A stretch of 1,978 bases of DNA from Escherichia coli (GTDB lineage Bacteria; Pseudomonadota; Gammaproteobacteria; Enterobacterales; Enterobacteriaceae). Positions within the stretch are counted from its first letter, which is position 1, and every line of letters starts with the position of its first letter. The stretch lies in NCBI RefSeq assembly GCF_003334255.1, contig NZ_QOWU01000142.1. One strand, given 5' to 3'. Both the position numbers and the translations under genes were made by a program. Below the pieces are notes generated by a model. The model saw only the letters and a list, made by a program, of their open reading frames with translations. It was not told the origin of the DNA and ran no database searches. This document shows positions 1,011 through 1,464 of this stretch, one piece after another.

Positions 1011-1037
1011 AAAAAACAAAACCCGCCGAAGCGGGTT
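1011..1037 (-). terminator. Rho-independent terminator of the hok mRNA
   Basis: Minus strand reads AACCCGC-UUCG-GCGGGUU followed by UUGUUUUUU: a 7-bp GC-rich stem (1020-1026 / 1031-1037) with a UUCG tetraloop, then a U-tract (1019-1011). Confidence 0.75.
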
Positions 1038-1040
1038 AAG

Positions 1041-1056
1041 TGCGGGTGCGTTGAGG
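1041..1056 (-). promoter_or_regulatory. fbi-like (fold-back inhibition) element in the hok mRNA 3' UTR
   Basis: Plus 1041-1056 tgcgggtgcgttgagg is identical, apart from one extra g, to the reverse complement of plus 1419-1433. In the minus-strand transcript the 3' segment CCUCAACGCACCCGCA can therefore pair with the 5' end UGCGGGUGCUUGAGG, as in the known hok mRNA tac/fbi interaction. Confidence 0.5.
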
Positions 1057-1105
1057 ATGCCTGACTCATCAGAGGTGGCGAGGGATTTCTCCCCCGCCAG
1101 GTCTC

Positions 1106-1261
1106 TTACTCCTCAGGTTCGTAAGCTGTGAAGACAGTGACCTCCGTCTGGCCGGTTCGGATTCGTACCTCGCAGAGGTCTTTCCTCGTTACCAGTGCCG
1201 TCACAATGACGGTAATACAGATGACGATCAGGGCGACTAACATCGCCTTTTGCTGCTTCAT
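1106..1261 (-). CDS. hokD: Hok/Gef family type I toxin (51 aa), HokD/RelF-like
   Basis: Translation from ATG 1261-1259 gives MKQQKAMLVALIVICITVIVTALVTRKDLCEVRIRTGQTEVTVFTAYEPEE, stop TAA at 1108-1106. By memory this is near-identical to E. coli HokD/RelF and very close to HokC/Gef (single TM helix, conserved KDLCEVRIRTGQTEV core). GGAG SD lies 9 nt upstream (1274-1271). The surrounding RNA architecture matches hok/sok. Confidence 0.9.
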   Translation of the reverse strand: MKQQKAMLVALIVICITVIVTALVTRKDLCEVRIRTGQTEVTVFTAYEPEE

Positions 1262-1318
1262 AGCCTGCTTCTCCTTGCCTTTCGGCGTGTAAGAGGCTAA
1301 CCTACATGTGACTAGCAT
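1106..1318 (-). CDS. mok: mok-like (modulation of killing) reading frame, in-frame 19-codon N-terminal extension of hok
   Basis: Track ORF 1106..1318 (70 aa) starts MLVTCRLASYTPKGKEKQA and runs straight into hok. GAGG SD (1330-1327) lies 8 nt upstream of ATG 1318-1316. The same-frame, same-stop arrangement matches chromosomal mokC/hokC as I recall the K-12 annotation. The start region is covered by the predicted Sok antisense RNA. Confidence 0.55.
   Translation of the reverse strand: MLVTCRLASYTPKGKEKQAMKQQKAMLVALIVICITVIVTALVTRKDLCEVRIRTGQTEVTVFTAYEPEE
1275..1303 (+). promoter_or_regulatory. Putative sigma70 promoter of the antisense Sok RNA, inside mok
   Basis: -35 TTGCCT (1275-1280), 17-bp spacer, -10 TAACCT (1298-1303); predicted start near 1310. 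Position and layout parallel the plasmid R1 sok promoter as I recall it (TTGCGC / TATCCT). Confidence 0.45.
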
Positions 1319-1384
1319 GAAATTGGCCTCAGATTAATGTTAAGCGTCCTGCAAGACGCATAATGTTAACTGGGGCTTTTCTCT
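1310..1384 (+). ncRNA. sok: Sok-like antisense RNA (type I antitoxin), boundaries approximate
   Basis: Plus-strand transcript would begin with a single-stranded tail (about 1310-1333) complementary to the mok SD and start codon, followed by a long imperfect stem-loop (1334-1348 / 1355-1369, loop CUGCAA) and a U-rich tail GGGGCUUUUCUCU (about 1371-1384). This mirrors the Sok architecture as I recall it. Ends are not experimentally defined. Confidence 0.45.
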
Positions 1385-1433
1385 GTCTGCCTTACGGTGG
1401 CATGCCCGAGGCAGACAGCCTCAAGCACCCGCA
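1383..1433 (-). promoter_or_regulatory. hok mRNA 5' leader: tac-like element plus 10-bp leader stem
   Basis: Minus-strand 5' end GCGGGUGCUUGAGG (1433-1419) is complementary to the 3' fbi element. It is followed directly by a perfect 10-bp inverted repeat (1383-1392 / 1409-1418) with a 16-nt loop containing the palindrome GGCATGCC (1399-1406). This aligns with the plasmid R1 hok mRNA 5' end as recalled from memory. Confidence 0.45.
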
Positions 1434-1436
1434 GCA

Positions 1437-1464
1437 ATTCTACTTAACTCTCGCTTTACCGCAA
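1437..1464 (-). promoter_or_regulatory. Putative sigma70 promoter of the hok mRNA
   Basis: Read on the minus strand: -35 TTGCGG (1464-1459), 16-bp spacer, -10 TAGAAT (1442-1437), giving a start near 1432 at the beginning of the tac-like sequence. Predicted transcript is about 420 nt to the terminator, consistent with hok mRNAs of roughly 400 nt. Confidence 0.4.

What the first reader, a model, noticed from the sequence alone, without database searches (positions are those of the whole stretch)
1011..1464. Apparently complete hok/sok-type type I TA module carried in a prophage
All canonical parts are readable: hok promoter, 5' tac-like leader, mok frame with its own SD, Hok toxin, 3' fbi-like element, intrinsic terminator, and an antisense Sok promoter and RNA over the mok start. 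In E. coli K-12 the homologous hokD (relF) sits downstream of relBE and is thought to have lost its own regulatory elements. Here no relE/relB-sized ORF lies upstream and the leader looks intact, so this copy could be a functional, ancestral-type hokD locus acting as a prophage stabilisation or abortive-infection cargo.
Basis: partly seen in the sequence, partly recalled or inferred. Interest (0 to 1): 0.5.

Follow-up and report, generated by a model that had tools for sequence, protein, structure and literature searches.

The report
Intact prophage hokD/sok toxin-antitoxin locus
This is a complete, ordinary copy of the well-known hok/sok small-toxin/antisense-RNA killer module, sitting in a lambda-like prophage of E. 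coli. It is the common full-length form of the gene that E. coli K-12 carries in truncated form as hokD (relF).

Summary
The window is an exact piece of the E. coli JE86-ST05 chromosome, inside a lambdoid prophage between replication/nin-type genes and ydfU-rusA-Q.

- **Family match:** the Rfam hok-leader model RF01794 scores 117.6 bits (gathering score 59). Pfam HOK_GEF matches at E 3.5e-22.
- **Parts mapped:** a 70-codon mok frame in frame with the 51-codon hok (as in mokC), SDs for both, a 14-bp 5'-3' tac/fbi pairing, an ucb box, a 3' hairpin and an intrinsic terminator. On the plus strand there is a ~75-nt Sok-like RNA whose -10 equals the -10 targeted by the promoter-less mutation in sokW.
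- **K-12 comparison:**
- **Not rare or new:** the full-length locus is in 3952 of 5426 complete E. coli genomes, against 1173 with the K-12 relE-hokD junction. It is annotated hokD, is about 90% identical to the tested hokW-sokW of prophage Sp5, and the "ancestral 70-codon hokD truncated by relBE" reading is already published.

Expression, toxicity and biological role were not testable here.

The parts
1459..1464 (-). hok promoter -35 (TTGCGG)
   Evidence: Sits 16 nt upstream of TAGAAT. The TTG is kept at 16-17 nt from the -10 in phage copies whose further upstream flank differs. It is below the consensus-scan threshold, so it is assigned by position and conservation.
1437..1442 (-). hok promoter -10 (TAGAAT)
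   Evidence: Nearly invariant in 50 distinct copies and across divergent flanks. It lies 5-6 nt upstream of the start of the Rfam leader model and of the aligned R1 mRNA 5' end.
1016..1431 (-). inferred full-length hok mRNA (about 416 nt)
   Evidence: Runs from the aligned 5' end to the terminator U tract. MFE -176.6 kcal/mol for the 416-nt 1431-1016 RNA. A slightly longer 425-nt fold (1440-1016) gave -181.1 kcal/mol with z -6.5 against shuffles. The ends are inferred, not mapped.
1419..1432 (-). tac-like 5' element (GCGGGUGCUUGAGG)
   Evidence: Pairs with 1042-1056 in the MFE fold with P(unpaired) 0.03. A 9-nt exact inverted repeat was found independently (I4). Invariant in 50 copies.
1383..1420 (-). 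5' leader hairpin
   Evidence: Part of the RF01794 consensus structure. One compensatory pair, A-U in 36 copies and G-C in 14 (helix 2).
1327..1330 (-). mok Shine-Dalgarno (GAGG), 8 nt before the mok AUG
   Evidence: Read from the sequence. Aligned with the GAGG before mokC and before R1 mok.
1106..1318 (-). mok reading frame (70 codons), in frame with hok so that it ends as Hok
   Evidence: ORF list. 75% identical to K-12 MokC, which is likewise in frame with HokC. 87% identical to the 70-aa 'gef homolog' ORF of Sp5.
1284..1297 (-). ucb-like box (GCCUCUUACACGCC)
   Evidence: In the full-length fold its CCUCU pairs with the hok SD. It can alternatively pair with tac at -18.3 kcal/mol, the same pattern as the best tac partner in the R1-type locus at -17.2.
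1271..1276 (-). hok Shine-Dalgarno (AAGGAG)
   Evidence: Invariant in 50 copies and identical in hokW, hokC, R1 and K-12 hokD. Homology with K-12 hokD starts here.
1106..1261 (-). hok (hokD-type) toxin CDS, 51 aa
   Evidence: Pfam HOK_GEF E 3.5e-22. phrog_251 'MokW-like host killing' E 5.4e-32. 48 of 51 residues identical to K-12 HokD. Annotated hokD in the identical genome sequence.
1077..1098 (-). 3' UTR hairpin (GGCGGGGGAGAAAUCCCUCGCC)
   Evidence: Folds in every prediction. It has compensatory changes in the copy set (helix 16). It sits where R1 has GGCGGGCGCAGGCCCGCC. Its role as the protective end of a processed mRNA is inferred from R1.
1042..1056 (-). fbi-like 3' element (CCUCAACGCACCCGC)
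   Evidence: Forms 14 pairs with tac, 99.3% of cells paired in 50 distinct copies (helix 1). Duplex -27.7 kcal/mol, reached by 3 of 2000 shuffles.
1011..1037 (-). intrinsic terminator of hok mRNA
   Evidence: The only minus-strand terminator-like site in the window: 7-bp stem with 5 G-C pairs, then TTTTGTTTTTT.
1275..1303 (+). Sok promoter (-35 TTGCCT, 17 nt, -10 TAACCT)
   Evidence: Same position and layout as R1 (TTGCGC, 17 nt, TATCCT). The -10 is identical to the sokW -10 replaced by primers YO-421/422 to make the promoter-less mutant that lost antitoxin activity. Columns are invariant in 50 copies. Below the scan threshold.
1310..1384 (+). Sok-like antisense RNA (about 75 nt): 5' single-stranded tail, long hairpin, U-rich tail
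   Evidence: Aligns with the annotated K-12 sokC, which maps to window 1310-1386. Folds like SokC and the sokW region, z -5.3. Complementary to the mok SD, AUG and first codons. Transcription was not shown here.

Best explanation
The locus is a full-length hok/sok-family type I toxin-antitoxin module of the hokD/hokC/hokW subgroup, carried as cargo in a lambdoid prophage.

Inferred mechanism, by homology with R1 hok/sok and Sp5 hokW-sokW:
- A weak promoter makes a stable hok mRNA of about 416 nt. Its 5' tac end is locked to the 3' fbi element, and its hok SD is paired with the upstream ucb box. The full-length RNA is therefore neither translated nor bound by Sok.
- Slow 3' trimming back to the 3' UTR hairpin removes fbi, and the leader refolds.
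- Ribosomes can then start at mok, which here is in frame with hok, and translation of hok follows.
- The short-lived Sok RNA of about 75 nt, made from its own promoter on the other strand, pairs over the mok SD and start. This blocks translation and marks the duplex for RNase III.
- When Sok supply stops, Hok (a 51-aa inner-membrane peptide) is made and collapses the membrane potential.

In a prophage, the best-documented trigger for loss of Sok is induction. After induction of Sp5, sokW RNA vanishes and HokW speeds growth arrest and phage release. Loss of the element (post-segregational killing) and shut-off by a superinfecting phage are the other classical triggers.

Shown here: the sequence and structure elements, their conservation and the genomic context. 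Inferred: transcription, processing, toxicity and the biological role.
For: - **Family models:** RF01794 scores 117.6 bits against a gathering score of 59. Controls on the hok-sense strand score 118.3 (hokC), 113.5 (hokW) and 87.2 (R1-type), with no hit at K-12 hokD. Pfam HOK_GEF E 3.5e-22. phrog_251 E 5.4e-32.
- **Close relatives:** about 90% nucleotide identity over 442 nt to Sp5 hokW-sokW and 87% protein identity over the 70-aa frame. HokD identity is 94%.
- **tac/fbi pairing:** seen, and kept in 99.3% of cells across 50 distinct phage copies.
- **hok SD sequestration:** ucb pairs with the hok SD in the full-length fold. The SD is freed when the RNA is cut before fbi, with P(unpaired) rising from 0.35 to 0.83.
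- **Sok:** positional homology to annotated sokC, the same fold, and a -10 identical to the one mutated in sokW.
- **Selection:** promoter, SD, tac, fbi and Sok-promoter columns are invariant or nearly so in 50 copies.
- **Context:** a lambdoid prophage.
- **Experimental precedent:** PMC8621323 shows HokW is toxic, sokW neutralises it from its own promoter, sokW disappears after mitomycin C, and phage release halves without the locus.
Against: - Neither promoter passes the simple sigma-70 scan.
- Covariation within the close copy set is thin. Only 5 of 143 pairs change on both sides, and the tac/fbi helix is conserved rather than covarying.
- The MFE fold of the 3'-truncated RNA does not give the R1-style tac-ucb pairing. 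Instead it pairs tac with AAGCCCC and ucb with the mok SD, so the activation step is not reproduced by thermodynamic folding.
- NCBIfam Hok models score below their curated cut-offs, 46.8 against 73.
- Chromosomal hokA, hokB and hokC loci were reported unable to mediate post-segregational killing (as quoted in 10.1101/2025.08.07.668861). An intact look therefore does not prove activity.
- Genomes carry up to 10 related copies, so Sok from other copies could buffer this one.
Confidence: 0.9

Rival explanations
1. The locus is structurally intact but functionally silent. It would be a hitch-hiking relic like the chromosomal hokA, hokB and hokC loci: it makes RNA but never releases toxin under natural conditions and has no role for the prophage.
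For: - Chromosomal hok loci were reported not to mediate post-segregational killing and not to respond to rifampicin (quoted in 10.1101/2025.08.07.668861).
- Both promoters are sub-consensus.
- The surrounding prophage carries several pseudogenes (DUF551, Ea22-like and YdfR fragments), so it may be decaying.
- Multiple related copies per genome could supply Sok in trans.
Against: - All regulatory elements are held nearly invariant across 50 distinct phage-borne copies, while flanks and the Sok 5' tail vary. This argues for ongoing selection.
- The hok ORF is intact, with only conservative changes relative to toxic K-12 HokD.
- The 90%-identical hokW-sokW is active in its native prophage.
Confidence: 0.2
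2. The module works as the best explanation describes, but its main role is defence of the lysogen or retention of the prophage. That means abortive infection or exclusion of superinfecting phages, or post-segregational killing after prophage excision, rather than help with the prophage's own lysis.
For: - R1 hok/sok on a high-copy plasmid reduces T4 plating and plaque size (cited in PMC8621323).
- Hok genes are about four-fold enriched in prophages (23% observed against 5% expected; 10.1101/2025.08.07.668861).
- Type I TAs are cited there as involved in maintaining prophages.
Against: - The same preprint found no enrichment of hok near defence systems.
- The only test of a close prophage homologue found a positive effect on phage release and no growth effect without induction.
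- Several related copies per genome would weaken post-segregational killing by any single copy if their Sok RNAs cross-react.
Confidence: 0.3
3. The main selected function of the region is not the toxin. Instead, its strong terminator and 3' structure would act as a regulatory terminator in the early-right (nin-type) operon upstream of ydfU-rusA-Q, analogous to the lambda tR terminators, with hok/sok as a passenger.
For: - The hok terminator is the only minus-strand intrinsic terminator in the window.
- It lies in the same orientation as, and directly upstream of, the genes leading to Q.
- K-12 keeps this 3' part although the leader is lost.
Against: - The whole leader, mok, Sok promoter and hok ORF are conserved as tightly as the terminator, and the terminator stem is among the more variable parts (H 0.25).
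- In Sp5 the same module sits in a different prophage region near the right end, so it moves as a unit independent of the Q region.
Confidence: 0.05

Closest known systems
hokW-sokW of Sakai prophage 5 (Stx2 phage Sp5/VT2-Sakai), Takada et al. 2021, PMC8621323
   Same: - About 90% nucleotide identity over 442 nt, including leader, mok, hok and fbi, and 87% identity over the 70-aa frame.
- Identical tac, hok SD and Sok -10 (TAACCT).
- The same Sok hairpin with the extra 18-nt insert relative to sokC.
- A lambdoid prophage carrier.
- RF01794 scores 113.5 bits against 117.6 here.
   Different: - Location in the prophage differs. Sp5 carries it near the right end after the tail genes, whereas here it lies between the replication/nin-type genes and ydfU-rusA-Q.
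- The Sok 5' tail, mok codons 2-4 and the SD-to-AUG spacer differ (GACTAGCATGAAATTGG against GTTCAGCATGGATTGAG).
- The Hok C-terminus differs (FTAYEPEE against FVDYESEK).
- The Sp5 copy diverges after fbi, with no aligned terminator.
E. coli K-12 hokD (relF) in cryptic prophage Qin
   Same: - Hok is 48 of 51 residues identical.
- The hok SD, CDS, 3' hairpin, fbi and terminator are about 97% identical.
- Synteny is the same: hokD is followed by a small gene, ydfU (DUF968) and a Q antiterminator.
   Different: - K-12 lacks everything upstream of the hok SD: promoter, tac, mok start, ucb and the Sok promoter and RNA. relB-relE lies there instead, and RF01794 finds no leader.
- The small gene downstream of hok is not homologous to K-12 rem.
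- The K-12 type junction is in 1173 of 5426 genomes, and the full-length form is in 3952.
E. coli K-12 hokC/mokC/sokC (gef)
   Same: - mok is in frame with hok (MokC 69 aa, 75% identical).
- About 75% nucleotide identity over 362 nt.
- The annotated sokC maps onto window 1310-1386.
- RF01794 scores 118.3 bits.
   Different: - hokC is a chromosomal, non-prophage locus that IS186 abuts 19 nt after hokC in K-12, so its fbi region does not align with this one.
- SokC is 59 nt because its hairpin lacks the 18-nt insert.
hok/sok (parB) of plasmid R1, the prototype
   Same: - The same order of elements and the same spacing of Sok -35/-10, mok SD and AUG, and hok SD and AUG.
- The same alternative tac-ucb pairing pattern.
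- RF01794 scores 87.2 bits on an R1-type locus.
   Different: - Hok is much more distant (R1 Hok against HokW is 44% identical according to PMC8621323).
- In R1, mok is read in a different frame from hok (read from the sequence), whereas here it is in frame.
- The carrier is a plasmid, and the demonstrated role is post-segregational killing.

Membership tests
[quoted passage not shown] | Hok/Gef-family toxin ORF of about 50 aa with an N-terminal hydrophobic helix | tested here: met
   Pfam PF01848 matches across the full model (1-42 of 42) at E 3.5e-22. phrog_251 E 5.4e-32. NCBIfam Hok models do match but below their curated cut-offs, 46.8 against 73 bits.
[quoted passage not shown] | The structured hok mRNA leader matches the family covariance model | tested here: met
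   RF01794 covers the full model 1-157 at 117.6 bits against a gathering score of 59, E 1.2e-27, on the hok-sense strand. Positive controls (hokC, hokW, R1) and a negative control (K-12 hokD) behave as expected.
[quoted passage not shown] | A mok reading frame with its own SD that starts upstream of hok and overlaps it | tested here: met
   ATG at 1318 with GAGG 8 nt upstream, 70 codons, in frame with hok as in mokC. Translational coupling itself was not tested.
[quoted passage not shown] | A cis-encoded antisense Sok gene (own promoter, 5' tail, terminator hairpin) complementary to the mok translation initiation region | tested here: met
   Met at sequence level only. It aligns to the annotated sokC, has the same fold, a promoter layout equal to R1, and a -10 identical to the sokW -10 that was mutated experimentally.
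[quoted passage not shown] | Long-range pairing of the mRNA 5' end (tac) with a 3' element (fbi) | tested here: met
   14 pairs between 1432-1419 and 1056-1042. Duplex -27.7 kcal/mol, reached by 3 of 2000 shuffles. 99.3% of cells paired in 50 copies, but with no compensatory change.
[quoted passage not shown] | Alternative ucb/dcb pairings that allow refolding after 3' processing | tested here: inconclusive
   ucb pairs with the hok SD in the full-length fold, and the SD opens when fbi is removed. A tac-ucb duplex is possible at -18.3 kcal/mol, like R1, but the MFE of the truncated RNA chooses other partners.
[quoted passage not shown] | Hok kills or arrests cells, and Sok RNA neutralises it (unstable antitoxin, stable toxin mRNA) | not testable with these tools
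   Shown only for relatives: hokW-sokW (PMC8621323) and K-12 HokD used as a toxic control (10.1101/2025.08.07.668861).
hokD (relF) orthologue group of Qin-type lambdoid prophages | Toxin sequence closest to HokD | tested here: met
   94% identity to K-12 HokD, against 75% over the Mok frame to MokC. The identical DNA is annotated hokD in RefSeq genomes.
hokD (relF) orthologue group of Qin-type lambdoid prophages | The same genomic slot: downstream of the replication/dic region and upstream of ydfU (DUF968) and the Q antiterminator | tested here: met
   Gene tables of JE86-ST05 and MG1655. The left end of the window encodes the DUF968/phrog_96 protein.
hokD (relF) orthologue group of Qin-type lambdoid prophages | K-12 arrangement relB-relE-hokD without its own leader | tested here: not met
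   There is no relBE here and the leader is present. This copy is the full-length form, not the K-12 relBEF form.

The most novel reading that the evidence does not exclude
The module lies in the same orientation as the prophage early operon, with no terminator upstream of it in the window. On induction, antiterminated read-through transcription would run through the locus in the hok-sense direction. This could switch Sok off by transcriptional interference at its convergent promoter. It could also make 5'-extended hok RNAs that cannot form the tac/fbi lock. Either effect would turn Hok into an induction-coupled lysis aid, and would explain the unexplained rapid, RecA-dependent loss of sokW RNA reported for Sp5.

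In addition, the Sok 5' tail is the most variable patch of the transcribed module. It could define specificity classes that keep the up to 10 co-resident copies in one genome from cross-neutralising.
Probability: 0.15. Interest if true: 0.45.

Novelty: already known. Interest (0 to 1): 0.12.

Why it matters
As it stands, this is a correct annotation of a very common element. It adds the unannotated parts (mok, Sok RNA, tac, fbi, ucb) to a gene that RefSeq labels only as hokD. It also shows that the K-12 relBEF arrangement is the derived minority form.

It would matter more if the role of hok/sok in lambdoid prophages were settled, whether lysis timing, prophage retention or phage exclusion. 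That question is still open. This nin-region copy offers a second genomic context to test beside the Sp5 copy.

Tried and rejected
- **Promoter scan:** the consensus scan found no sigma-70 site in 900-1600, and nothing at the hok or Sok promoters in the whole window. The promoters therefore rest on homology.
- **Covariation test:** on 50 distinct phage copies the set is too similar (96% mean column identity). The structure is 95.4% paired against about 40% when slid, but only 5 pairs change on both sides, and tac/fbi shows conservation rather than covariation. That excess is also inflated, because the structure was derived from the window's own sequence, which is one row of the alignment.
- **Folding 3'-truncated mRNAs:** this was meant to reproduce the R1 activation refolding. 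The hok SD opens, but the MFE does not choose tac-ucb, so the step is left as inferred.
- **NCBIfam:** Hok models hit below their curated cut-offs. Pfam and PHROGs were used instead.
- **'rem-like' label:** the downstream 92-aa ORF has no similarity to K-12 Rem. It is phrog_1212, of unknown function.
- **Plus-strand RF01794 hit:** 1372-1503, 18.2 bits, E 0.31. Rejected as a by-product of the palindromic hairpin.
- **Other weak Rfam hits:** the ceN48 and v-snoRNA hits were rejected as chance, being far below their gathering scores.
- **isrK hit on the hok 3' UTR:** 27.1 bits against a gathering score of 50. I ran one paper search for isrK with hok but opened none of the hits, so the link is not established.
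Full report
**What is in the window.** The 1978-bp window is an exact substring of the chromosome of E. coli JE86-ST05 (NZ_AP022815.1). All plausible genes are on the minus strand:
- a DUF551 fragment (1727-1960);
- two small hydrophobic ORFs (1647-1730 and 1507-1611/1662);
- the hok locus;
- a 92-aa ORF of unknown function (660-938, phrog_1212);
- the N-terminal 219 aa of a DUF968/YdfU-type protein (658 to the left end, phrog_96).

In the genome this string continues into rusA and a Q antiterminator. 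It is preceded by P/O-like replication genes, a cI/cro-like region and dicB. The setting is therefore the nin-type region of a lambdoid, Qin-like prophage.

On the minus strand:
- -35 TTGCGG 1464-1459, 16-nt spacer, -10 TAGAAT 1442-1437, inferred +1 about 1431;
- tac GCGGGUGCUUGAGG 1432-1419 and a 5' hairpin 1420-1383;
- mok SD GAGG 1330-1327 and mok AUG 1318;
- ucb 1297-1284, hok SD AAGGAG 1276-1271 and hok CDS 1261-1106;
- a 3' hairpin 1098-1077, fbi CCUCAACGCACCCGC 1056-1042, and a terminator 1037-1011.

On the plus strand:
- Sok -35 TTGCCT 1275-1280, 17-nt spacer, -10 TAACCT 1298-1303;
- start about 1310, then a long hairpin 1326-1376 and a U-rich tail to 1384.

Statistical support is strong:
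- Rfam RF01794 scores 117.6 bits (gathering score 59, E 1.2e-27).
- Pfam HOK_GEF matches at E 3.5e-22, and phrog_251 'MokW-like host killing' at E 5.4e-32.
- A 425-nt fold of the mRNA region (1440-1016) has z -6.5.
- The tac/fbi duplex is -27.7 kcal/mol, reached by 3 of 2000 shuffles of the 3' UTR. Its 9-nt exact core was found independently as an inverted repeat.

Two caveats apply. Neither promoter reaches the threshold of the consensus scan. And the Rfam family named 'sok' models the hok-sense leader up to the hok AUG, so it supports the leader and the Sok target rather than the Sok transcript as such.

**Comparison with references.**
- *K-12 hokD.* Against the K-12 Qin prophage, homology starts at AGGAGAAGCAGGCTATG, 17 nt before the hokD ATG. 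It continues through the CDS, 3' hairpin, fbi and terminator, and upstream of that point K-12 has relE. RF01794 finds no leader at K-12 hokD, but it hits K-12 hokC (118.3 bits), Sp5 hokW (113.5) and an R1-type plasmid locus (87.2), all on the hok-sense strand. HokD of K-12 and the Hok here differ at 3 of 51 residues.
- *mok.* The mok frame is in frame with hok, giving a 70-aa product. This matches mokC (75% identity) and the 70-aa 'gef homolog' ORF of Sp5 (87%). In the R1-type sequence, mok is in another frame (read).
- *sokC.* The annotated sokC of K-12 maps onto window 1310-1386. The window and Sp5 share an 18-nt insert in the Sok hairpin.
- *sokW promoter.* The primers used by Takada et al. 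to destroy the sokW promoter replace AGGTTA, which is TAACCT on the Sok strand. That hexamer is identical here.

**Conservation.** A scan of IMG/VR returned more than 594 relatives. The best 80 loci gave 48 distinct sequences of the 430-nt module, and I aligned these together with the window and Sp5.
- tac, the AAAAGCCCC linker, the Sok promoter, the hok SD and the hok CDS are invariant or nearly so (entropy 0.00-0.07).
- The tac/fbi helix is paired in 99.3% of cells.
- Covariation is thin because the set is close. One clear A-U/G-C swap occurs in the 5' hairpin, with a few more in the 3' hairpin and terminator.
- The hok -10 (TAGAAT) and a TTG at 16-17 nt upstream persist even where the further upstream flank is unrelated. 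This places the left border of the mobile module at the promoter.

**Folding.** In the full-length RNA, tac is locked to fbi (P unpaired 0.03) and the ucb CCUCU pairs with the hok SD. When the RNA is cut before fbi, the hok SD opens, with P unpaired rising from 0.35 to 0.83. A tac-ucb duplex of the R1 type is possible at -18.3 kcal/mol, compared with -17.2 for the R1-type locus. The MFE of the truncated RNA prefers other partners, however, so the activation refolding is inferred from R1 rather than shown.

**How common and how known.**
- The 454-bp query matches 4719 of 5426 complete E. coli genomes. 3952 of them hold at least 80% of it, with a median of 2 and up to 10 places per genome, and the locus is annotated hokD.
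- The K-12 type relE-hokD junction is in 1173 genomes.
- Related copies are in 363 phage records, including Stx phages, where they are labelled 'host killer protein', 'MokW' or 'gef'.
- PMC6379469 already states that the ancestral hokD ORF is about 70 codons and was cut to 51 by integration of relBE.
- PMC8621323 shows for the 90%-identical hokW-sokW that HokW is toxic and sokW neutralises it from its own promoter. RNase III and Hfq contribute to neutralisation. sokW RNA disappears after mitomycin C in a RecA-dependent way, HokW then reaches the inner membrane, and deletion halves phage release.
- A 2026 preprint reports hok genes about four-fold enriched in prophages and HokD toxic when expressed.

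**Verdict.** The element is a full-length hokD-type hok/sok module in a lambdoid prophage. It is not new: it is the majority form in E. coli, it is annotated, its relation to K-12 relBEF is published, and a close homologue has been characterised.

Its activity and role in this prophage were not testable here. The best-supported role by analogy is help with lysis and release on induction, with post-segregational killing and phage exclusion as alternatives.

One speculative point remains, based only on gene orientation and the absence of an upstream terminator in the window. Sense read-through from the early operon on induction might be what silences Sok.

Noticed in passing
window 1307-1326 (Sok 5' tail; mok SD-to-AUG spacer and codons 2-4): This 20-nt patch is the most variable part of the transcribed module among 50 distinct phage copies (mean entropy 0.44, against 0.00-0.07 in the adjacent Sok stem, Sok promoter and hok SD). 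It occurs in 8 variants. The window's variant (Sok-sense GACTAGCATGAAATTGG) is in only 3 of the 50. Since the Sok tail makes the first contact with hok mRNA in R1 (own knowledge), the variants could be specificity classes among the up to 10 copies in one genome.
   Followed up: partly
window 1477-1498: A perfect 22-bp palindrome, CGATATGGGAATTCCCATATCG, lies 13 nt upstream of the hok -35, between the stop of a small ORF and the hok promoter (I2). It is absent from the Sp5 hokW flank and has no U tract on either strand. It could be a protein-binding site or a transcript-end hairpin.
   Followed up: no
window 1016-1097, minus strand: There is a weak Rfam match to isrK (RF01394), a Salmonella prophage sRNA, over the hok 3' UTR (3' hairpin, fbi and terminator). 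It scores 27.1 bits against a gathering score of 50, E 0.0024. It may be chance, or isrK may derive from a hok 3' end. One paper search for isrK with hok returned hits that I did not open, so the link is unexamined.
   Followed up: partly
window 1117-1126, minus strand (GCUUACGAAC; Tyr47 codon UAC at 1122-1120): The Tyr47 codon of Hok sits in UACGAA, the tRNA-Arg2 anticodon-loop-like motif used by TadA (own knowledge). The preprint 10.1101/2025.08.07.668861 says hokC, hokD and hokE mRNAs are A-to-I edited at this position to give the second Cys needed for the disulfide. The motif is invariant in all 50 copies.
   Followed up: partly
window 1647-1730 and 1507-1662, minus strand: Two very small hydrophobic ORFs lie directly upstream of the hok locus. 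One is 27 aa (MIWPEAFAITGVAMAIAFLVYVICRCG), and its ATG overlaps the stop of the DUF551 fragment (ATGA). The other is 34-51 aa and is annotated in RefSeq as WP_001278450.1. Neither has a family match, apart from a weak hit of the 27-aa ORF to phrog_38566 (E 0.0035).
   Followed up: no
window 660-938, minus strand: The 92-aa ORF in the slot occupied by rem in K-12 Qin has no detectable similarity to K-12 Rem. It matches phrog_1212, of unknown function (E 1.1e-32). Some phage records label the gene in this slot 'rem' or 'toxin to Rem'.
   Followed up: partly
window 1106-1261 (Hok protein): The NCBIfam Hok models (NF007279, NF007290) match but score well below their curated cut-offs, 46.8 against 73 and 37.6 against 89 bits. 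RefSeq nevertheless names the protein HokD. The name therefore seems not to come from either of these two models, though I could not see what it is based on.
   Followed up: no
L005 5519-5606, minus strand (VT2-Sakai / Sp5): Rfam sRNA-Xcc1 (RF02221) matches above its gathering score (60.6 against 53 bits) in the Sp5 region fetched as a control. It is unrelated to the hok locus.
   Followed up: no
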